64,000 bases of DNA, taken from NCBI GenBank assembly GCA_963611815.1, contig CAVDSY010000003.1, forward strand, positions 9,178 through 73,177, given 5' to 3'. The notes under the pieces are model-generated. The model was not told the origin of the DNA. It was given only the letters and a program-made list of their open reading frames with translations, and searched no databases. Shown here one piece after another: positions 3,760-58,506 of this stretch; position 1 is the stretch's first letter, and each line of letters starts with the position of its first letter. A program made the position numbers and the translations under genes. This stretch comes from a bacterium. GTDB taxonomy: Bacteria > Bacillota_I > Bacilli_A > RFN20 > CAG-826.

Positions 3760-3841
3760 TTTTGTCGCTTCTTTGCTGGCTTTTAGGAAACCAGGGAAGA
3801 ACGGCATCAGATGAACATGATGTCGTAAATTGGAATATAGA

Positions 3842-4320
3842 CTAGCTTTCCTTCTTCTCAAAGTATTCCTTCAAATGGGAAATCACATCCTCATCTATGG
3901 AATTGGCCAAAAGGAACTCTTCGAAATCCATCGGATGCATTCTTTTCTCAATAATCGATCCCATGGGGGTCAAAGTTGTTTTTTGCATCGCGATTCCTAA
4001 CTCCGATCCGCTGCAAATGTATTTGTAACGATTGTCTAGATTCAAAAGCTTAAGCAATGTGAAAAGCTTGGGGCAGACCTGTATTTCATCAAGAAAGACC
4101 AATGTGTTCTTTCTCTCTCAGCTTTCCGCCGGCGAAAGAACCAAAGGCTAAGTAAAATGATTCGAGGGTGCTCGCATGCTCAAAAAGCCTTGCCCCGGCT
4201 TTGTCGTCCGCCATGTTGATCTCGACATGGTTTGGAAAGTGTTTTTTCGCAAGCTCACCGATTATGGTAGTTTTGCCTATTTGCCTCGCTCCATCAATGC
4301 ACAGGATATAGTTCTATCAT
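3842..4320 (-). pseudogene. remnant of AAA+ ATPase (AAA_14/DUF4143 family), 5'- and 3'-truncated with internal frameshift
   Basis: Walker A ILCIDGARQIGKTTII in one frame (4130-4300) and LDEIQ...MHPMDFEEF block in another (3842-4102); homologous to the intact gene at 29116-30456. Confidence 0.5.
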
Positions 4321-4585
4321 CTGTTAGATATTCTTCGATATAGGCGCTTTTTTACGGTACATATATCTTTGTCCTTTTGGGTTTTCCAACAAAAATATAT
4401 TGAAAAACTGCACTTTTCCAACATCTGTTTTATTAATCGATAAGTGACATGAATAGCTGCAAGGAGTTTATGTTCCGACACGCAAAGACCGCGCTTAGAA
4501 GGTTAGGAAGGCAGCAAAAGAAAATTCAACCACGTCGCTGCCGTTATGATTTACAATTGTCCCCGATTAAGGAGGCCTATGTAAA

Positions 4586-5160: not shown

Positions 5161-6132
5161 TTAGTTGCTTGCGCTTGTGCTTTTCACGACGGAGAGCTCG
5201 GTCAAGTCGCTGTAAAGAGGGTAACTTATATTGATCCCTGAGCTGCCACCGGCGTCATTCATTTGGTCGATGAAAGCATTAATTAGGCCGTTTGTTGTGC
5301 CGCTGTATGTTGTGTTTTTGCCGTCATCGTAATCAATCCATACATAGACGATGCAGGTTTTGTCGCTCGCCGCTGCGTATGTAAGGTCAAAGCTAATGGA
5401 AGCGTTTTTTGTGGTCTCAGTGGCGCCGTTAACGGTCTTCAGCGTTTTCACAAAATACTTTTGCTCTACATTCTTAAACTCATTTTTCAGCGTCTGGAAG
5501 TTGGTCTCAGAGCTGCCGCTATCCCAAGTATAGGTATGTTCGCCTCCCGTTACGGGTTCCACCATTGCCTTCACTGAGATAACGGAGGAAATGTAATTTG
5601 AGAGATCGTATTTTTGCCCAGAAGCGCCAGACGCGTCTTCACTTACTGACTCAGATGAAGAACTGTCGGTTGTCACTGTTTTGATAGCATGATCTTTATC
5701 CGTATTGTGCGTGATCGCTAAAGAAAGCTTGTTATCAGTGGTGGTGTATGTTCCGCCGCTGAGCTTGAGCTTCAATAAAATGGGGGTGTAGTCGTTGTCT
5801 TCTTGGAAGACCTGGTCATAACGCAGCAAAGAAAGATCCATCTTGCCTGTGTCATTGCCATTCGCATCTTTGATTGTTGGGTTTTCTGCGAATTCGTGGC
5901 TTCCGTTATCGTTCTGGATGTATTTGTAGACGGTCATGTCTACTGAGGCATTCTCGTCCGTTTTAACCTGGATCGCCATGCCGCTTGCGTCTACTTCTTT
6001 GTTGGATGCGAACCAAGAGAAAGTGGAGGATGTGCTGAACCAAGCAAACAACGATACCGCAAGCGTGCCCAAAGAAAGGAAATAGGCAACGCTTGCCAAG
6101 CGGAATCCTTTTCTTCTGAAGAGCTTGCTCAT
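5161..6132 (-). CDS. TasA/camelysin-like secreted protein with SipW-cognate-type signal peptide (locus 1)
   Basis: N-terminus K/R-rich, hydrophobic core, then SLFAWFSTSSTFSWFASNKEVDASGMAIQV, which parallels TFAFFSDKEVSNNTFAAGTL of camelysin and TWAAFNDIKSKDATFASGTL of TasA; paralog of 23918-24877. Confidence 0.55.
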   Translation of the reverse strand: MSKLFRRKGFRLASVAYFLSLGTLAVSLFAWFSTSSTFSWFASNKEVDASGMAIQVKTDENASVDMTVYKYIQNDNGSHEFAENPTIKDANGNDTGKMDLSLLRYDQVFQEDNDYTPILLKLKLSGGTYTTTDNKLSLAITHNTDKDHAIKTVTTDSSSSESVSEDASGASGQKYDLSNYISSVISVKAMVEPVTGGEHTYTWDSGSSETNFQTLKNEFKNVEQKYFVKTLKTVNGATETTKNASISFDLTYAAASDKTCIVYVWIDYDDGKNTTYSGTTNGLINAFIDQMNDAGGSSGINISYPLYSDLTELSVVKSTSASN

Positions 6133-6189: not shown

Positions 6190-6330
6190 CCCCTGCTAGA
6201 AACCCTTTCGGGTTGGCAGCTGGCTGTCTTAGGAAGACCCTTTAGCTTTGCGTCGCCAGATTGCCCTGGCTTTGCTTTTGACGAGGGGAATTATAAGGGA
6301 TACGCGCGTACGCGCAAGGGCTAATTCTTT
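6190..6330 (-). promoter_or_regulatory. conserved structured leader (copy 1) plus relic of the giant-gene start codon region, upstream of the TasA-like gene
   Basis: nucleotide similarity to 28797-28900; hairpins GUCUU-CCUA-AAGAC and GCCAGG-GCAA-UCUGGC on the minus-strand RNA. Confidence 0.5.
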
Positions 6331-27800: not shown

Positions 27801-28796
27801 GTCGACGTCGATGGTCTCTGAGGCGACGTAGTAGACATCGCTGGTGATGCTCGAGTCGCTTTGCTCGCTTTTGATGTCGTTGTACATCTGCTCCATGTCG
27901 ACCGATCCGCCCCAGTTGGTGGAACCGTGGCTTGTATTGGGGTTCTCAACCTGGGGCATGCTCATGGTCTCATCGCTGACAAGCGTTTTGGCGAGATAGC
28001 TATCGGTTGCGTAGCCGACGAGAGAATACTCGGAGACATGCTCGACCCCGGTGATGTCGGTGATTGGGGACGCCCCTGATTTGGTGGCGATCGATGAACC
28101 GTTGACGCCCACCCCTGAAAGGGTCCCGTTGACATAGCCCGCGGCGAGGCCAACCAAAGTGGAGGAGGAAGCGGAGACGATCGAAAGGGAGGATAGGCCG
28201 AGATTCTTGATCTCGTTGGCGGAAGTGTCGTAGTTATATCCGTTGACTTTGCTCTCGTCGCTTGTCGAGCCGACCACGCCGAAGAAACCGACGATCTCGG
28301 CTTGCTTCAGATTGCCCTCGCTGTCCTCTTCGGCGCGGGCGGGGACGTTGGTAAGCTCTGAATAGTCGTTAGTGATCGTGAGGTTGCTGATGGTGTGCCC
28401 GTTCCCGTCGAAGGAGCCGACGAAAGGATATTGCTCCGTCCCTGCGGGAGGAAGGGAATAGCCTTCCCCGTCGATGTCGCTGGTGAGTTTGAAATAGATT
28501 TGCTTTATTGCGGTCTTTCCGTCGTTTGGGTCGTTGAATATGCCGAGGTCCTGCAGCCAGTTGAAGTAATAGAGCTGGCGGGCGTTATCGATTTCGAATG
28601 GAGCTTCTTTGGAGCCGTCCCCTCCGTTGAAATAAGAGCCGCTGCCCTTGCCTCCTATCCCTCTTAATGCGGCGCTGGTCTGAGCTTTGGAGAGCCAAGC
28701 GAGGCTAGGGATGGCGACCAGTCCGGCGCACGACAAAAAAGCGAGCCCTAAGAAAAACGCCGCCTTCTTTTTCTTGTCTGCTAGAAAACCTTTCAT
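24882..28796 (-). CDS. giant (~1305 aa) secreted GLUG-motif / beta-helix protein with SipW-type N-terminal signal and long S/T/Y-rich low-complexity middle region
   Basis: N-terminus MKGFLADKKKKAAFFLGLAFLSCAGLVAIPSLAWLSKAQTS; the YPFVGSFDGNGHTISNLTITN and LVGLAAGYVNGTLSGVGV (GLUG-like) motifs; RBS AGGCGG; ORF track start 28814 is a TTG extension. Confidence 0.65.
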   Translation of the reverse strand: MKGFLADKKKKAAFFLGLAFLSCAGLVAIPSLAWLSKAQTSAALRGIGGKGSGSYFNGGDGSKEAPFEIDNARQLYYFNWLQDLGIFNDPNDGKTAIKQIYFKLTSDIDGEGYSLPPAGTEQYPFVGSFDGNGHTISNLTITNDYSELTNVPARAEEDSEGNLKQAEIVGFFGVVGSTSDESKVNGYNYDTSANEIKNLGLSSLSIVSASSSTLVGLAAGYVNGTLSGVGVNGSSIATKSGASPITDITGVEHVSEYSLVGYATDSYLAKTLVSDETMSMPQVENPNTSHGSTNWGGSVDMEQMYNDIKSEQSDSSITSDVYYVASETIDVDPSGNESQPKDIVYSSTKATRSESGGTQYYFKNGQRKDEDGGVLASYGITTSSTYDDTYVFIYGTPDEVPTSSSEKMSVKRNVYGYLPTISKSGHFLSVSEDGTLIDVSSSGACGWNMPSAGGSGYIYTYVGETAYYLSRSSSNSLYLTSSASTTWTYEADKGNIYSSDDSYSYYLDYDETSSAWTLVQDEISETYLTILDTYSKKYIGSSSSGTISSSDSVSGDEFKWAYDSSSNGYRPLTSSTLYLCAQRTRSGFSNTFNVIMSASTNTGSTAISRYTLSGAQSDGTGTGTMSAYLRGTITSYTVYLYYGSSSFAADTSTSSHSFTIAKVGTGGDISTGLSFSDSSQTGVKESSTSERNAAYYVNPTYVPLAYSYSDEDSKTGINGVSEMNTGYLVGGANFIDSSDYAGDIRVSKAYKMSSLSTSFYSAYNSSNLQVVTRSCIEEDGAYSDSGWSRVIDNYNSSASKSSSIPSTTVESSKLKRYDSARYNLESTIFSGSVSSSTALYGLHFMNAQISTDHLCQVGKAIVYDKAAEKVYQDKLQEYLDGKTDEKPTQSGSVYSNYDVPEDSIDFNLATEGYINFFGGSYFTNNTCFFSLNEVVRDENNSISEIKQISKIYANLGDDKKEKPYLYSYDGSVPANSSSSQLVFDVSWIASTDGDIISNCLYYFEIPVNAGEYALGSVSGKSGAYLLYLDIGTGAADYEAVTIKEKTTSNIIKQNYPKGVDFTSSFKDLPSLSGGGSACVALLLAPSKGIDYSYESNVLTSSLSSGVKVVYSKEGVSVKDSAGTALPKKSDTPLIVIMERETSEKYNPVNTSLNLTYSCTWTISGASKGDEIQLYFLANEATWKSGDESVGAVSSSGLVTMQSDGSLTITATGTASETASSEWQGPETIIREETFGEFKISLDNGEASVEYVYDATNKTYVVTVHCSEKCNATIISTPSDSNYSITINGNAVTGAGQVIAIEATE

Positions 28797-28900
28797 CAGC
28801 CGCCTTGTTGGCAACCGGCTGTCTCCAAGAGACCCATGGCTTTGCGTCGCTAGGTCGCCCTAGCTTTGCTTTTGTCGGGTTGATGATACGCGAAATGTGT
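28797..28900 (-). promoter_or_regulatory. conserved structured 5' leader of the giant gene (copy 2): hairpins GUCUC-UUG-GAGAC and GCUAGG-GCGA-CCUAGC (GNRA loop)
   Basis: aligns with 6190-6330 with compensatory base changes in both stems. Confidence 0.55.
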
Positions 28901-28989
28901 TCGCTTTCAATAGTCCTTTTGGAGGGTTGGGCGCTTGTGGAAGCGATCTTGCCGACGCGAAGGAAGCGGTCCTGAGTCTTAGCCAATCA

Positions 28990-29086
28990 TTGATTTTCAT
29001 TTAGAAAATGCAACTAAACCGCTTGATTTTCATTTAGAAAATGCAACTAAAACTTTGATTTTTCATTTAGAAAATGCAATATTCAA
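28990..29086. repeat. three tandem direct repeats (period 33 bp) each containing the palindrome ATTTTC-ATTTA-GAAAAT; putative operator array in the divergent promoter region
   Basis: TTGATTTTCATTTAGAAAATGCAACTAAA at 28990 and 29023 (identical) and a 1-nt variant at 29055. Confidence 0.8.
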
Positions 29087-29115
29087 TTTGCTTTTTAATG
29101 ATTGATGGAGGTTTT

Positions 29116-30456
29116 ATGGAGTTTAAAAGGAAGGTATATAGCCAAATGAAGGAGTGGAAAGATGAAAGAAACAAGAATTCCGCTCTTTTGATTGAAGGAG
29201 CTAGGCGCGTGGGAAAAACGACGATCGTCAAGGAGTTTGCCAAAAACGAATACGACGGTTTCATTTATATAGATTTCACTTATGCTCCCGACGAAGTCAA
29301 AAGCCTTTTTAAGAAGATAAACCCGGCCAATCGGCTTTCCATGGACCAGTTCTTCTCAGATTTGTTTCTGCTTTTTGGAAAAACGCTGAAGAAAGGAGAT
29401 TTGATCATTTTCGATGAGGTTCAGCATTTCCCATTGGCAAGGCAAGCGATAAAGGCGCTCGTCTCCGATGCCAGATACGACTACATAGAGACAGGCTCTT
29501 TGATTTCCATCCGTGAGAATACGCAGGACATCCAAATCCCTTCCGAAGAAAGAAGGATCGAGATGCACCCCATGGATTTTGAGGAATTCTGCTGGGCTTT
29601 TGGCTGGAACGAGAAATGTGAGATGCTCCGCGCGATATGGGATCAGCGCAAGACGATCAGCGAAAGCGCCCACAGGCTTTTGATGGATGATTTCAGACTC
29701 TACTTGGCTTTGGGGGGGATGCCGAAAGTCGTCTCTTTGTATCAAGAGACCCACTCATTCATGCGCTGCGAGAAGGAAAAGCAGGACATATTGAAGCTAT
29801 ATGAGGACGATCTGAGAAAGCACGACAACAAATCGAGGACGCGGACATTGGATATCTATGATTCCATGCTTCCTTCACTCAAAACCTGGTCGAGGAGAGT
29901 GAAGACGAACAATCGGAGTTCCAGCATGGCCCTATCCTATCAAAGGTCGCTCAAAGATCTTGAGGACTCCAAAATAGTGAACGCGGTCTACCGCTGCCAA
30001 GATTTGAGTTTCGGCACTTTCATGAAGGAAGAGAACGATTTCAAACTTTATCCCCTCGATGTCGGGCTTATGCTCAGCTCTTTGATTGGCGATGCGAACG
30101 ACGATTGCGAGAAGACGTATCTCAAAATAAGGACTGGAAAGCTGGATGGGGCCAATTTCGGAGTTCTGTACGAATCGCTGGTTGCCCAAAGCTTGGCATG
30201 CAACGAAAGGAAGGTCTTCTATCACACCTTCGAGTACGGCGAGAAAAGATATGAGATCGACTTCGCCACCTTCATAAAAGGAAAGATGAATGTGATTGAG
30301 GTCAAATCGACGAAGCGTTTCACGACTTCTTCTTTGTCTTCTTTGAAAGCTAAATACCCGCAGCTGAAGTTCGATAAGTTAGTCGTCTCGCCCAAAACCC
30401 TCAGCTATGACGCCGAGACGACTTACCTTCCTATTTATATGACTTTCCTGCTCTAA
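29116..30456 (+). CDS. AAA+ ATPase (AAA_14/DUF4143 family)
   Basis: Walker A LIEGARRVGKTTIV; Walker B LIIFDEVQ; RBS gatggagg; intact paralog of the remnant at 3842-4320. Confidence 0.65.
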   Translation: MEFKRKVYSQMKEWKDERNKNSALLIEGARRVGKTTIVKEFAKNEYDGFIYIDFTYAPDEVKSLFKKINPANRLSMDQFFSDLFLLFGKTLKKGDLIIFDEVQHFPLARQAIKALVSDARYDYIETGSLISIRENTQDIQIPSEERRIEMHPMDFEEFCWAFGWNEKCEMLRAIWDQRKTISESAHRLLMDDFRLYLALGGMPKVVSLYQETHSFMRCEKEKQDILKLYEDDLRKHDNKSRTRTLDIYDSMLPSLKTWSRRVKTNNRSSSMALSYQRSLKDLEDSKIVNAVYRCQDLSFGTFMKEENDFKLYPLDVGLMLSSLIGDANDDCEKTYLKIRTGKLDGANFGVLYESLVAQSLACNERKVFYHTFEYGEKRYEIDFATFIKGKMNVIEVKSTKRFTTSSLSSLKAKYPQLKFDKLVVSPKTLSYDAETTYLPIYMTFLL

Positions 30457-47735: not shown

Positions 47736-49289
47736 TCACTTGGCGATGCCAGTCGCATACTTGACGATGTAAATCGCAAGGAAGGCAGCGGAGCAAGCGG
47801 CGACGGCGATGTCGTCTTTCTTGAAGCGCCCGGCGACGAGGGTCATGATCGTGTAAGTGATGAAGCCCCAAGCAATGCCATCAGAGATGGAGTAGGCGAC
47901 GCACATGACGATGACAGTGATGAAACCGGAGCCGACGGCAATCCAATCTTTCCACTCGAGATGCTCAAGGTTTTTGAACATGCAGATGCCGACGTAGACG
48001 AGAGCGAGCCCGGTGACTGCGCTGGTGGAGAAGGCACTCAAGGCAGGATAGACGAGGAGGCTGAGCCCAAAGAGAAGGCCGGTGACAACGGCGGCAAGGC
48101 CGGTGCGAGCGCCGGCGGCGACGCCAGTGGTGGACTCGACGAAGGAGGTGACGGTGGTGGTGCCGCAGATGGAGCCGAAGACGGTGCCGACGGCATCGAC
48201 GATCATCGCGGGTTTGTCGTTAACGGTGATGTTGCCATCGGCGTCAACCATGCCAGCGCCAGCTTCGACTCCGACCAAAGTGCCGGTGGTGTCGAAGAAG
48301 TCAACGAAGAGAAGGGAGAAAGTGAATGCGTAAGCCATCGGCTGAGCAAAGACATCGAAGCCCATGAAGCAAGATCCGAAGATTTTGCCGATGTTTCCAA
48401 CGGAAGTGATGCTGTAGCTGCTGTCGTAGAAAGGGGCGAATCCGGAAACGCCAGCAGAACCCATGGAGCCGCAGACGATGGCCATGACGACGATGGCGAT
48501 GATGACGGAGAATTTGTTGATCCAGAAGCAGACTTTGCTCTTTTGGGGCAAGGCGGAAAGGGCGATGACGATGATCACTCCGAGAAGGCCCATGAGGACG
48601 GTCGGCTCTTTGAAACTGCCAAGGGCGACGAGGGTCGGGCCATCGGCGATGATGCCCATGTTCTGGAAGCCGATGAAGCAGATGAAGAATCCGATACCTG
48701 CGGAGATGGCAAATTTAAGCGACTTCGGGATGTGGCGGACAATCCAGCCACGGAGAGGGGTGATCGAGATGATTAAGAAGAGGATGCCATCGACCATGAC
48801 GAGGCACATCGACTGAGCGAAGTTATAGCCAAGGCCGAGCATGACATTGTAGGCAATCAATGAGTTGAGGCCAAGACCAGAAGCAAGCCCGACGGGGAGT
48901 TTGCCGTAGAATCCCATGAAGATTGTGGTAACGGCGGCCGAGATGGCGGTGGCGGCGAAGACGGCGGCGCGGACATCGCTGACGGTGGCCCAAGTGTCAC
49001 CATAAATAAGGATGTAGGTGATGTCGCCAATGATTTTGGTGTTCGAATTGCCAATTGCGGCGGCGGTTCCGGCCCATTCGGTGGAGAGCATGTTCGCGTT
49101 AAGCGGCAAGATGTAGAACATCGCAAGGAAGATGACGAGTCCGCCAATGAGTTCCTTTATGATGCTGCTCCCGCGGTTGCTGATCTGGAAATAGTTGTCA
49201 AGCCAACTTCCGAATTTGGTTTTCGGTGACCAGCCTTTGGGGTTGTTGCTCTCGGGTGAAGTTTCAACAGTTGAAACAGCTTCAGCCAT
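47736..49289 (-). CDS. NCS2 family purine permease (AzgA/PbuG-like guanine/hypoxanthine permease)
   Basis: 517 aa polytopic protein with AzgA-type blocks; preceded by a guanine riboswitch-like leader. Confidence 0.75.
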   Translation of the reverse strand: MAEAVSTVETSPESNNPKGWSPKTKFGSWLDNYFQISNRGSSIIKELIGGLVIFLAMFYILPLNANMLSTEWAGTAAAIGNSNTKIIGDITYILIYGDTWATVSDVRAAVFAATAISAAVTTIFMGFYGKLPVGLASGLGLNSLIAYNVMLGLGYNFAQSMCLVMVDGILFLIISITPLRGWIVRHIPKSLKFAISAGIGFFICFIGFQNMGIIADGPTLVALGSFKEPTVLMGLLGVIIVIALSALPQKSKVCFWINKFSVIIAIVVMAIVCGSMGSAGVSGFAPFYDSSYSITSVGNIGKIFGSCFMGFDVFAQPMAYAFTFSLLFVDFFDTTGTLVGVEAGAGMVDADGNITVNDKPAMIVDAVGTVFGSICGTTTVTSFVESTTGVAAGARTGLAAVVTGLLFGLSLLVYPALSAFSTSAVTGLALVYVGICMFKNLEHLEWKDWIAVGSGFITVIVMCVAYSISDGIAWGFITYTIMTLVAGRFKKDDIAVAACSAAFLAIYIVKYATGIAK

Positions 49290-49424
49290 AGTCTTTTCCT
49301 CCTATTCAATATAAGTAAGACTTGTCTTTAGGAGGTAATGACGTCGGGAGCTTTGGTGCAAACAAGGAAGAAAAACGCAAAAGGAGAGCAGTTCTTTCGG
49401 CGATGTTTTCTTCTTTGTTTCCTT

Positions 49425-49502
49425 TCTTAGCTCGTAGTGCCTGACTTCATGGATCAAGCGTAGAGACTGCCGGACCATATCCCCGACATATACGACCTAT
49501 CG
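49425..49502 (-). promoter_or_regulatory. purine riboswitch (guanine type, C at the specificity position) in the 5' UTR of the purine permease gene; expression platform sequesters the SD
   Basis: Minus-strand RNA has P1 (AGGUCGUA), J1/2 (UAU), P2 (GUCGGG / UCCGGC) with L2 (GAUAUGG), J2/3 (AGUCUCUAC), P3 (GCUUGA / UCAGGC) with L3 (UCCAUGAAG), J3/1 (AC), and P1 3' strand (UACGAGCU). Anti-SD CCUCCU (49330-35) can pair with SD AGGAGG (49300-05). Confidence 0.55.
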
Positions 49503-49635
49503 ACGTTAAGTAACTATATATAAAGAAAACGGTTTGCAAACATGAAAGCGGTTTAACGCTAAATTATCTTCCTAGCCCCTTTTTTGCCTTTCTCCCTATG
49601 TTACAATAATCGGCTAGAAAGAAGGTACCCAATCC

Positions 49636-57811: not shown

Positions 57812-57902
57812 TCTAGAGTAGAGAAGTCGCGTTAAGTGCCTGAGGATGGGAGGTCGCCTCTGGACGAAGGAGCAATCCGCGGTGCCTTCTCGCTGCCGCT
57901 AT
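57812..57902 (+). promoter_or_regulatory. THF (tetrahydrofolate) riboswitch upstream of an ECF transporter S-component gene
   Basis: AGAGUAG...CGCGUUAAGUG...AUGGGAGGUCG...ACGAAGGAG...CGCGGUG...GCUGCCGCU matches the conserved blocks of the Eubacterium siraeum THF aptamer almost position for position. Confidence 0.6.
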
Positions 57903-57939
57903 AAAAAGCTTACCTCCCTGCCGTGGAAGGAATTTTGGC

Positions 57940-58506
57940 ATGGGGAAAAGAGATTCTTTGATTCGCCGCATGTGCGCTGACGGGATGCTTGTCGGCCTTT
58001 TTGTGGTCCTGACGCTAGTAAACGTCAAAATCGGTCCGATGGTGAGAATCAGCTTCGGCTCTTTGCCGGTGGTTTTCTCCGCTCTTCTCTTTGGACCAGT
58101 CGATGGCCTAATAGTTGCCGTGCTTGGCGAGTTCATCTGTCAAACGATTAATTACGGCTTCTCACTGACTACTCCTTTATGGATTCTGGTCCCGGGAATA
58201 AGGGCTTTGGTCATCGGTTTTGTTTCATCTCTTTTCAAAAAGAAAGGGATGGCCCTTGAAAGACATCCGCTTCCTTATTTCGCGACATTGGTCATCGCCG
58301 CTCTTTGTGTTACCGCGCTCAATACCCTTGTCTCTTTCTTGGACGCTTTGATCTTCGATTACTCATTCACCATCGTTTGGCTGACGACGCTTATCCGCCT
58401 TGGCATAAGCATAGCCACCTCGATTGCCATCGGCCTAGTTTGCATTCCCCTAACAAAATCAATCGGTTCATTGGTTTTCCCGGGTAGTAAAGACAAATAT
58501 CATTAA
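57940..58506 (+). CDS. folT: ECF transporter S component (folate-family, FolT-like)
   Basis: 188 aa, 5-6 TM; follows a THF riboswitch. Confidence 0.55.
   Translation: MGKRDSLIRRMCADGMLVGLFVVLTLVNVKIGPMVRISFGSLPVVFSALLFGPVDGLIVAVLGEFICQTINYGFSLTTPLWILVPGIRALVIGFVSSLFKKKGMALERHPLPYFATLVIAALCVTALNTLVSFLDALIFDYSFTIVWLTTLIRLGISIATSIAIGLVCIPLTKSIGSLVFPGSKDKYH

What the first reader, a model, noticed from the sequence alone, without database searches (positions are those of the whole stretch)
28990..29086. Three tandem 33-bp repeats, each a perfect palindrome ATTTTC-ATTTA-GAAAAT, in the divergent promoter region
Exact phasing at 33 bp (three helical turns) puts three identical dyad-symmetric sites on the same DNA face, the classic arrangement for cooperative binding of a dimeric regulator. 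The array sits immediately upstream of the AAA+ ATPase gene (start 29116) and ~200 nt upstream of the giant gene. No regulator gene is obvious nearby.
Basis: seen in the sequence. Interest (0 to 1): 0.6.

Follow-up and report, generated by a model that had tools for sequence, protein, structure and literature searches.

The report
Private operator array of an ATPase-nuclease gene
The three 33-bp repeats are real and belong to the ATPase gene downstream. Relatives of this widespread, uncharacterised ATPase-nuclease (the "PDC-S01" phage-defence candidate) across bacteria and archaea carry their own clade-specific repeats at the same 33/34-bp spacing just upstream. The likeliest explanation is that the protein binds its own promoter.

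Summary

**What is in the window**
- Window 28990-29088 holds three direct repeats in exact 33-bp register.
- The conserved unit is an asymmetric 17-20-mer, TTTCATTTAGAAAATGC(AAC), not a palindrome. Only 4-bp arms (TTTC/GAAA) are conserved among relatives.
- The array travels with the downstream gene 29116-30456, an AAA_14 + winged-helix + PD-(D/E)XK protein that matches PADLOC candidate PDC-S01.

**Evidence from relatives**
- Orthologues in about 20 unrelated genomic contexts share only "array + gene".
- Their synonymous sites are saturated (32% identity), yet every core motif position is 86-100% conserved.
- Of 71 relatives (38-85% identity, bacteria and archaea), 60 carry 2-5 upstream direct repeats at 33 or 34 bp. 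Control regions show 1-2 of 190 at those offsets.
- The motif sequence differs by clade, and between paralogues on one replicon.
- The motif is kept down to about 60% protein identity and replaced at about 50%. The residues that switch concentrate in the predicted winged helix (p = 0.0015).

**Promoter and neighbour**
- The last copy fills the 17-nt spacer of the gene's promoter.
- The divergent giant gene has its own promoter and a c-di-GMP-I riboswitch.

**Best reading:** each protein binds its own array head-to-tail and autoregulates. Binding is inferred, not shown. I found no published description of this.

The parts
28990..29022 (+). Repeat copy 1. The conserved core TTTCATTTAGAAAATGC lies at 28995-29011, followed by AAC to 29014.
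   Evidence: The core is 86-100% conserved per position in 69 copies from 20 orthologous loci.
29023..29055 (+). Repeat copy 2. The core lies at 29028-29044, followed by AAC to 29047. It matches copy 1 at 30 of 33 positions.
29056..29088 (+). Repeat copy 3, the promoter-embedded copy. The core lies at 29061-29077.
   Evidence: In the clade, the last copy specifically carries TTGA 4-7 nt upstream (85-90%) and TATATT immediately downstream of the core.
29055..29083 (+). Inferred sigma-70-type promoter of the ATPase gene. The -35 is TTGATT (29055-29060), the 17-nt spacer equals the core of copy 3, and the -10 is AATATT (29078-29083), preceded by TGC (extended -10).
   Evidence: Read from the sequence and from the clade consensus TTGAnn-17-TATATT. 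The window's own copy scores 8/12 and fell below the scanner's 9/12 threshold. No TSS data are available.
29107..29111 (+). Shine-Dalgarno sequence GGAGG, 4 nt before the ATG.
   Evidence: Orthologues start at the same MEFK/MEFR N-terminus.
29116..30456 (+). AAA_14 ATPase, helical lid, predicted winged helix (residues about 244-315) and PD-(D/E)XK nuclease (DUF4143), 446 aa. It matches PADLOC candidate PDC-S01 and is the presumed binder of the array.
   Evidence: Pfam AAA_14 at 1.2e-23 and DUF4143 at 7e-11. PADLOC PDC-S01 at 2e-87. Walker A/B and D382/E395/K397 are invariant. AlphaFold model pLDDT 89.9. Foldseek best matches are 2qen, RFC and ORC/Orc1-Cdc6. GC is 36-49% against about 54% in the flanks.

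Best explanation
The array is the private operator, or assembly site, of the ATPase-nuclease gene that follows it. Array and gene form one self-contained, horizontally mobile, single-gene cassette.

**Proposed mechanism**
1. The gene is transcribed from a sigma-70-type promoter: TTGATT (29055-29060), a 17-nt spacer, then AATATT (29078-29083). The spacer is exactly repeat copy 3. *(Inferred from the sequence and the clade consensus.)*
2. The gene's own product recognises each asymmetric 17-20-bp motif as one protomer, through its winged helix (about residues 244-315). *(Inferred.)*
3. Neighbouring protomers contact each other head-to-tail through their AAA+ modules. This would explain why the pitch stays at 33/34 bp across the family while the motif sequence changes. 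*(Inferred.)*
4. Cooperative occupancy of the copies covers the core promoter and represses transcription. That would hold a potentially toxic nuclease at a low, host-independent level. *(Inferred.)*
5. Whether nucleotide state or an external trigger releases the protein is unknown.

**What is shown**
- The element is conserved, phased and private to the gene, and it changes together with the protein.
For: 1. **Same motif in unrelated contexts.** Orthologues (75-85% aa identity) in about 20 different genomic contexts all carry 1-5 copies (two or more in 18 of 20) of TTTCATTTAGAAAATGC(A/T)AC at a 33-bp pitch directly upstream. Similarity starts at the first repeat and ends at the stop codon.
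2. **Purifying selection on the DNA.** 4-fold degenerate sites of these genes are 32% identical, which is saturated. Each of the 17 core positions is 86-100% conserved, and the 13-nt inter-repeat stretches are not.
3. **Family-wide feature.** 60 of 71 relatives (38-85% identity, bacteria and archaea) have a 14-mer (at least 12/14) repeated at offset 33 or 34, plus multiples at 66-68. In 190 control regions the count is 1-2 at these offsets and at most 4 at any offset. Plasmid-borne relatives at 27-30% identity show it too.
4. **The motif tracks the protein.**
   - Motif similarity correlates with protein identity (Mantel test, 0 of 500 permutations reached the observed value).
   - All 5 sampled relatives at 60-68% identity keep motif A. 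All 5 sampled at 49-53% have other motifs.
   - Two paralogues on one 167-kb Segatella copri record carry different motifs at the same pitch, each found only at its own gene.
5. **The protein has a candidate reader.** The predicted architecture is AAA+, lid, winged helix, as in Orc1/Cdc6 and 2qen. Consider columns at least 90% conserved in the motif-A group but at most 10% retained in the other-motif group. They make up 10 of 31 conserved columns in the winged helix, against 18 of 191 elsewhere (Fisher p = 0.0015). They include W258Q, K263N, T264I and R277D.
6. **The last copy sits in the core promoter.** TTGA and TATATT flank only the last copy in the clade.
7. **No other conserved gene accompanies the array**.
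Against: - No binding, footprint, TSS or expression data exist. Self-binding and repression are inferences.
- Co-inheritance alone would produce a protein-motif correlation. The domain-enrichment test rests on one clade split.
- An earlier four-class version of that test was weak: the linker scored as high as the winged helix.
- The window's own promoter hexamers are mediocre (8/12), and the scanner did not call them.
- A generic sigma-70 scan across the whole family did not show promoters preferring the last copy: 15/60 against 23/129 for the other copies. Many hosts are Bacteroidota or archaea, which the scan does not model.
- Eleven of 71 relatives show no array by my criterion.
- The winged-helix segment has no marked net positive charge (+1).
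Confidence: 0.6

Rival explanations
1. The array is bound by the ATPase-nuclease, but its main role is not transcriptional control. It would be a nucleation or anchoring platform, analogous to an ORB or DnaA-box cluster. On it the AAA+ protein would assemble into an oligomer or filament for its real job: a self-DNA "address" that keeps the nuclease inactive, a sensor platform, or a site involved in spreading the cassette. Any autoregulation would be a by-product.
For: - The fixed 33/34-bp pitch across very different motifs and hosts points to a protein-protein geometry constraint rather than promoter architecture.
- Up to five copies extend 100-190 bp upstream of the promoter, more than simple occlusion needs.
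- The fold resembles origin-binding AAA+ proteins.
- The cassette is clearly horizontally mobile. Relatives at about 80% identity sit in contexts of very different GC content and gene content.
- One PDC-S01 representative, tested by others, was not among the candidates that protected E. coli against T4, T5 or T7 (PMC12881386). The family's function is therefore open.
Against: - The most downstream promoter-proximal copy is precisely embedded between the -35 and -10 in the clade, which is what an operator looks like.
- No second array, inverted copy or conserved end exists downstream of the gene that would suggest a transposon-like unit.
- Nothing here bears on filament formation.
Confidence: 0.22
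2. One reading: an unlinked dimeric transcription factor binds three dyad-symmetric sites and co-regulates the divergent ATPase and giant surface-protein genes, possibly as part of a regulon.
For: - A 6+5+6 interrupted inverted repeat is present in copies 1 and 2 of this window.
- The array lies in a divergent intergenic region.
Against: - The extended dyad is not conserved. The required bases appear in 17% and 47% of copies, and conspecific assemblies lose one T in copy 1.
- Conservation is asymmetric and head-to-tail.
- The array follows the ATPase gene into unrelated neighbourhoods and phyla.
- Paralogues in one replicon have different motifs.
- No other sites occur in the 64-kb window.
- The giant gene has its own promoter-like site and a c-di-GMP-I riboswitch.
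Confidence: 0.05
3. The repeats are not protein-specific sites at all. They would be tandemly duplicated promoter or UP-element DNA, a nucleoid-protein or curvature element in AT-rich foreign DNA, or an RNA-level element in a transcribed leader.
For: - The region is AT-rich (36-41% GC against 50% for the window).
- In this window every copy carries a TTGAT that could mimic a -35.
- The RNA fold z-score is -2.2.
Against: - In the clade, TTGA and TATATT flank only the last copy. The shared conserved core is not a promoter hexamer.
- Base-by-base conservation against saturated synonymous sites, together with clade-specific sequences, does not fit generic curvature or nucleoid-protein binding.
- No Rfam family matches the array.
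- The hairpin is 5-6 A/U-rich pairs, -3.8 kcal/mol as DNA.
- The upstream copies lie outside the inferred transcript.
Confidence: 0.05

Closest known systems
DnaA and the DnaA-box clusters at the dnaA promoter (from general knowledge)
   Same: An AAA+ ATPase with a helix-turn-helix-type DNA-binding domain recognises asymmetric sites as monomers. It oligomerises along a cluster of same-sense sites directly upstream of its own gene and autoregulates.
   Different: - There is no sequence relationship; the DnaA domains are absent.
- The sites here are 17-20 bp at a rigid 33/34-bp pitch, not 9-mers at variable spacing.
- The protein carries a PD-(D/E)XK nuclease.
- It has many paralogues per genome, each with a private motif.
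- Binding here is inferred only.
Archaeal Orc1/Cdc6 and origin recognition boxes (ORB)
   Same: - The predicted architecture is AAA+, lid, winged helix. Orc1-DNA complexes 2qby and 2v1u are among the Foldseek matches.
- One protomer per roughly 30-bp site next to its own gene is a plausible footprint analogy.
   Different: - The Foldseek TM-scores are low (0.22-0.31), and Pfam and NCBIfam do not place the protein in Orc/Cdc6.
- ORBs are usually in inverted orientation flanking an unwinding element; here all copies are direct.
- The gene is multi-copy, horizontally scattered and nuclease-fused, which does not fit a replication initiator.
Plasmid Rep proteins and iterons
   Same: Three to five phased direct repeats lie immediately upstream of, and overlap, the promoter of the gene whose winged-helix product binds them. 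The repeats and the protein co-diversify into incompatibility-like specificities.
   Different: - The protein is not a Rep family member.
- No adjacent AT-rich unwinding element or DnaA boxes were noted.
- The cassettes sit in chromosomes, several per replicon.
PDC-S01 (PADLOC phage-defence candidate; AAA_14 + DUF4143; COG1373)
   Same: The gene is a full-length, high-scoring member (2e-87) with intact Walker and PD-(D/E)XK residues.
   Different: - Published descriptions give only the domain fusion and abundance: fourth most common candidate, about 39,000 instances (PMC12988326).
- The papers I found and read do not mention an upstream repeat array.
- Defence activity is unvalidated. One tested representative was not among those that protected (PMC12881386).

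Membership tests
PDC-S01 / AAA_14-DUF4143 ATPase-nuclease (protein family) | N-terminal AAA_14 P-loop domain with Walker A and Walker B motifs | tested here: met
   PF13173 at 1.2e-23. G28, R31, G33, K34, T36 and D100, E101 are invariant in 62 homologues.
PDC-S01 / AAA_14-DUF4143 ATPase-nuclease (protein family) | C-terminal DUF4143 with a PD-(D/E)XK catalytic triad | tested here: met
   PF13635 at 7e-11. D382, E395 and K397 are invariant. DUF4143 is listed in the PD-(D/E)XK superfamily (PMC3424549).
PDC-S01 / AAA_14-DUF4143 ATPase-nuclease (protein family) | Full-length match to the PADLOC PDC-S01 profile | tested here: met
   PDLC04786 at 2e-87, protein residues 1-445 matched to profile positions 1-431 of 439.
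PDC-S01 / AAA_14-DUF4143 ATPase-nuclease (protein family) | Anti-phage activity | not testable with these tools
   It is a candidate only. Validation is pending (PMC12988326), and one representative was not among those that protected (PMC12881386). The window context is not a defence island: the neighbours are a surface protein and a DUF1846 gene.
Autoregulatory direct-repeat operator (iteron-like or DnaA-box-like array) | Several same-sense repeats at a fixed helical pitch directly upstream of the gene | tested here: met
   Three copies at 33 bp. 60 of 71 relatives at 33/34 bp.
Autoregulatory direct-repeat operator (iteron-like or DnaA-box-like array) | At least one repeat overlaps the core promoter | tested here: inconclusive
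   The clade consensus places the core exactly in a TTGAnn-17-TATATT promoter. The window's own hexamers score 8/12 and were not called. The family-wide sigma-70 scan was uninformative. No TSS data.
Autoregulatory direct-repeat operator (iteron-like or DnaA-box-like array) | The sites are bound by the product of the adjacent gene | not testable with these tools
   Indirect support only: co-transfer, co-diversification, paralogue-specific motifs and specificity-switch residues enriched in the winged helix.
   Only 4-bp arms are conserved, the outer arm positions carry the required base in 17% and 47% of copies, and an asymmetric flank is conserved. Copy 1 differs in conspecific assemblies.
   None in the 64-kb window at up to 3 mismatches. 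Motifs are private in a 167-kb record. Isolated 17-mers in metagenome and viral collections are single hits without an ATPase nearby. The whole genome of this organism could not be scanned.
Plasmid iteron origin / archaeal ORB origin | The adjacent gene is a Rep or Orc1/Cdc6 initiator, and the repeats flank an unwinding element | tested here: not met
   The gene is AAA_14/DUF4143. The only NCBIfam hit is a 15-bit RFC fragment. All repeats are direct. Multiple cassettes occur per replicon.
CRISPR array | Repeats of 23-50 bp separated by unique spacers of similar length | tested here: not met
   The variable stretch is only about 13 nt and is often similar between units. The array sits inside a promoter.
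Known structured RNA (Rfam) | Match to a covariance model over the array | tested here: not met
   No hit on 28990-29088 at E up to 1. The only hit in the intergenic region is the c-di-GMP-I riboswitch on the other strand.

The most novel reading that the evidence does not exclude
The whole PDC-S01 / AAA_14-DUF4143 superfamily (tens of thousands of genes in bacteria and archaea, labelled "defence candidates" without proof) may consist of sequence-programmed AAA+ nucleases. Each would polymerise head-to-tail at a fixed 33/34-bp pitch on a private DNA "address" next to its own gene. The array would then be the nucleation site of a DNA-templated AAA+ assembly central to the protein's unknown function. 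As a by-product, the family would be a large natural library of mutually orthogonal protein-operator pairs that work across phyla.
Probability: 0.22. Interest if true: 0.85.

Novelty: new variant of a known kind. Interest (0 to 1): 0.66.

Why it matters
PDC-S01 is reported as one of the most abundant "defence candidates" in prokaryotes and the most frequent single locus in rumen genomes (PMC12988326, PMC13356809). Nothing is known about how it works or how it is controlled. One direct test by others did not list it among the candidates that protected against phage (PMC12881386).

**What this finding gives the family**
- A conserved, phased and clade-specific DNA element attached to these genes is its first concrete, testable molecular handle.
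- It predicts sequence-specific DNA binding by the protein.
- It predicts which domain reads the DNA, the winged helix.
- It predicts a protomer spacing of 33/34 bp.
- It predicts insulated specificities between paralogues.

**Consequences**
- It would explain how a single-gene nuclease cassette can move between phyla and domains while carrying its own expression control.
- Annotation pipelines could use the array as a cis-signature.
- The protein-operator pairs could serve as orthogonal regulatory parts.

Tried and rejected
1. **Regulon search in the window.** The 17-mer, the dyad pattern and relaxed versions occur only in the array.
2. **Tandem-pattern scans** of metagenome contigs and viral contigs found nothing.
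3. **Single 17-mer scans** gave 136 loci. All were isolated single hits, none lay next to an ATPase homologue and none showed 33-bp neighbours, so I take them as chance matches.
4. **"Two other ATPase paralogues."** Only one frameshifted remnant was found.
5. **RNA explanations.** No Rfam match on the array, and the hairpins are weak.
6. **Empty-site comparison to define cassette borders.** The two other assemblies that carry the identical neighbouring DUF1846 gene also carry the cassette.
7. **Four-class specificity-position analysis.** It was weak or confounded: the linker scored as high as the winged helix. A cleaner two-group test replaced it.
8. **Family-wide sigma-70 scan.** It showed no preference for the last copy and is uninformative for Bacteroidota and archaeal hosts.
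10. **Literature searches** for DUF4143, COG1373, PF13635/PF13173, PDC-S01 and PABY2304 found no description of the repeats. The AAA_14 query returned only irrelevant text matches.
11. **Organism name.** The exact-sequence cluster look-up returned no names. The source assemblies carry inconsistent taxonomic labels.

Full report
**1. The observation**

Window 28990-29088 contains three head-to-tail copies of a 33-bp unit (TRF period 33, score 148; the repeat finder family D1 with 33/33 spacing).
- The core TTTTCATTTAGAAAA starts at 28994, 29027 and 29060.
- Nothing else in the 64-kb window has a 14-mer recurring at an offset of 32-35 bp.
- The 17-mer TTTCATTTAGAAAATGC has no other match with up to 3 mismatches.
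- The array ends 27 nt before the ATG at 29116, which follows GGAGG at 29107-29111. It begins 194 nt from the giant gene's ATG at 28796.

The description as a "perfect palindrome" needs correcting.
- The unit is a 6+5+6 interrupted inverted repeat with a non-palindromic centre.
- Copy 3 has a mismatch.
- Two conspecific assemblies read ATTTC rather than ATTTTC in copy 1.

**2. The array belongs to the ATPase gene**

The downstream gene (29116-30456) is an AAA_14 + DUF4143 protein and a full-length match to the PADLOC candidate PDC-S01 (2e-87).

A scan of one genome per species returned about 20 loci encoding 75-85% identical proteins. They sit in contexts that differ completely in sequence, GC content and assigned taxon.
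- In all of them the only shared DNA is the gene plus 1-5 copies (two or more in 18 of 20) of TTTCATTTAGAAAATGC(A/T)AC at a 33-bp pitch directly upstream.
- Similarity ends at the stop codon.
- In the window the cassette is also a low-GC island: 36-49% against about 54% in the flanks.

The divergent giant Big_2 surface-protein gene has its own control elements, both outside the array:
- a promoter-like site at 28910 to 28883 on the minus strand;
- a c-di-GMP-I riboswitch at 28807-28880 on the minus strand, which passes Rfam's gathering score.

**3. The motif is under selection and is asymmetric**

Among 17 orthologues, 4-fold degenerate sites are 32% identical, which is essentially saturated. 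Across 69 repeat copies, each of the 17 core positions is 86-100% conserved. The roughly 13 nt between cores are not.
- Only TTTC/GAAA is conserved as a dyad.
- The asymmetric ATGC(AAC) flank is 86-97% conserved.
- The element is therefore a direct repeat of an asymmetric site, which does not suit a symmetric dimer.

**4. Position in the promoter**

In the clade, the last promoter-type copy is specifically flanked by TTGA 4-7 nt upstream (85-90%, against 26-59% per position in the other copies). TATATT follows immediately downstream of the core.
- The 17-nt core is therefore exactly the spacer of a TTGAnn-17-TATATT promoter, and its TGC serves as an extended -10.
- In the window this reads TTGATT (29055-29060), 17 nt, AATATT (29078-29083). 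That scores 8/12, which is weaker and below the scanner's threshold.
- Some orthologues add a further copy in the leader at -29.

**5. The feature is family-wide**

| Sample | Result |
|---|---|
| 71 relatives with enough upstream DNA (38-85% identity; Firmicutes, Bacteroidota, Actinobacteria, Spirochaetes, Chloroflexi, methanogenic and Methanomassiliicoccales archaea) | 60 have a 14-mer (at least 12/14) repeated at offset 33 (34 loci) or 34 (31 loci), with harmonics at 66-68 |
| 190 control regions from the same loci | 1-2 at these offsets, at most 4 at any offset |
| Plasmid-borne relatives at 27-30% identity | 3 of 4 examined show the repeats |

- Copy number is 2-5.
- The motif differs by clade. 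Examples are CTGCGTATTATCC, TTAAGGAAA, ATCTTGAAAAGGTG, ACTTGCGTGTTTCGTG, AAAATGCGGGATTCGGG and ATATTGAAGAAATG.

**6. Motif and protein change together**

- Motif similarity follows protein identity (Spearman 0.47; 0 of 500 label permutations reached the observed value).
- All five sampled relatives at 60-68% identity keep motif A.
- All five sampled at 49-53% identity have other motifs: TTACTTTTnAAnTTTTGTA in four and TATTTCAACCGAATTTTTGTA in one, still at 32-33 bp.
- On one 167-kb Segatella copri record, two paralogues carry TCAAAACGTGAGAAATAG x3 and AAAAGTCCCTCATAAAAGTG x3, both at 33 bp. Each motif is found nowhere else in the record.
- Tandem paralogues elsewhere also have distinct upstream repeats.
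- This argues against a host-wide regulator and for a cognate reader encoded in the cassette. The cassette encodes only one protein.

**7. The protein**

AlphaFold (pLDDT 89.9, pTM 0.88) gives four modules:

| Residues | Module |
|---|---|
| 1-160 | AAA+ |
| 165-240 | Helical lid |
| about 244-315 | Winged-helix-like module (helices 244-255 and 269-284, beta-hairpin 288-313) |
| 348-446 | PD-(D/E)XK domain, with D382, E395 and K397 invariant |

- The best Foldseek matches are the archaeal Walker ATPase 2qen, clamp-loader subunits, ORC and Orc1/Cdc6 (including the DNA complexes 2qby and 2v1u) and STAND NTPases.
- I compared columns at least 90% conserved in the motif-A group (n = 31) but at most 10% retained in the other-motif group. 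These make up 10 of 31 conserved columns in the winged helix and 4 of 14 in the adjoining linker. The figures are 7/101 for AAA+, 3/36 for the lid and 4/40 for the nuclease.
- Fisher p = 0.0015 for the winged helix against the rest, and 1.5e-4 when the linker is included. The switched residues include W258Q, K263N, T264I and R277D.
- This is indirect evidence that the winged helix reads the motif.
- An earlier four-class version of the test was inconclusive.

**8. Mechanism**

- Most likely (confidence about 0.6): the protein binds its own array, one protomer per repeat, head-to-tail. AAA+-mediated neighbour contacts set the invariant 33/34-bp pitch. Occupancy of the promoter-embedded copy represses transcription. 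The result is a portable, self-limiting cassette for a potentially toxic nuclease.
- Shown: conservation, phasing, privacy to the gene and co-diversification.
- Inferred: the binding, the domain responsible and the direction of regulation.
- Main rival (about 0.22): the array is primarily an assembly or anchoring platform for the protein's unknown function.

**9. Comparison with known systems and novelty**

- Functionally the arrangement resembles DnaA at the dnaA promoter, Orc1/Cdc6 at ORBs and Rep proteins at iterons. It meets none of those families' membership criteria (see the membership table).
- The protein is a bona fide PDC-S01 / AAA_14-DUF4143 member.
- The literature I could search describes this family only as an abundant ATPase plus PD-(D/E)XK candidate awaiting validation (PMC12988326, PMC13356809 and bioRxiv 10.1101/2024.01.29.577857).
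- It is listed as "unknown" in the PD-(D/E)XK survey (PMC3424549).
- One tested representative was not among those that protected E. coli (PMC12881386).
- I found no mention of the upstream repeats.
- I therefore rate it a new variant of a known kind, namely phased direct-repeat operators for an AAA+/winged-helix protein. Its relevance extends across the whole family.

**10. Limits**

- No experimental data are available.
- The organism's full genome could not be scanned.
- The sampling of relatives is biased towards gut metagenome-assembled genomes.
- Taxon labels of many assemblies are unreliable.
- The domain-enrichment test uses a single clade split, so it is not phylogenetically independent.

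Noticed in passing
window 28807-28880 (minus strand): A c-di-GMP-I riboswitch aptamer (RF01051, 57.4 bits against a gathering score of 35; the variant model RF03168 scores 63.5 bits). It lies between a promoter-like site (28910 to 28883) and the ATG at 28796 of the 1310-aa Big_2 surface-protein gene. The giant gene therefore looks c-di-GMP-controlled, and its real start is the ATG at 28796, not the TTG at 28814.
   Followed up: partly
window 6212-6286 (minus strand): A second c-di-GMP-I riboswitch (58.1 bits) lies upstream of the 323-aa ORF 5161-6132 on the minus strand. That ORF has no Pfam match.
   Followed up: partly
window about 3840-4340 (minus strand), upstream region to about 4425: A frameshifted and internally deleted remnant of a second AAA_14/DUF4143 gene (36-43% identity in two pieces). 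TGTTGGAAAA occurs twice 32 bp apart just upstream (starts at 4423 and 4391). This may be a decayed array of a different specificity.
   Followed up: partly
window 57812-57903 (+) and 49415-49515 (minus strand): A THF riboswitch lies ahead of an ECF-transporter S component (57940-58506). A purine riboswitch lies ahead of a xanthine/uracil-family permease (47736-49289). Both are ordinary, Firmicutes-style arrangements.
   Followed up: partly
window 28990-30456 against its flanks: The array-plus-gene cassette is a low-GC island (36-49% against about 54%) wedged between two convergently and divergently oriented host genes. This is consistent with horizontal acquisition. No target duplication or empty site was found.
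   Followed up: partly
L229, L230, L238 (relatives' loci): AAA_14/DUF4143 genes often sit in tandem, two or three in a row. Where examined, each has its own, different upstream repeat: L229 has TTCATTTAGAAAATG against TTCGCTATnGAAATTGC.
   Followed up: partly
L219 (Vescimonas fastidiosa plasmid pMM35_02), 300 bp upstream of the ATPase gene: Besides two same-sense GAAAAAGTGTC repeats at 33 bp, three copies of GTGTC(C/T)ACTTTT lie further upstream at 42-bp spacing. They resemble the reverse complement of the repeat (GACACTTTTTC), which would be an inverted arrangement not seen in the other loci.
   Followed up: no
L002-L024 record titles: Proteins about 80% identical are found in assemblies labelled Staphylococcaceae, Lachnospiraceae, Oscillospiraceae, Elusimicrobiaceae, Bacteroidaceae, Alistipes and Slackia. 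Either the cassette is exchanged very widely, or many "cleanbin" taxon labels are unreliable. The flank GC does vary from about 25% to about 55%.
   Followed up: no
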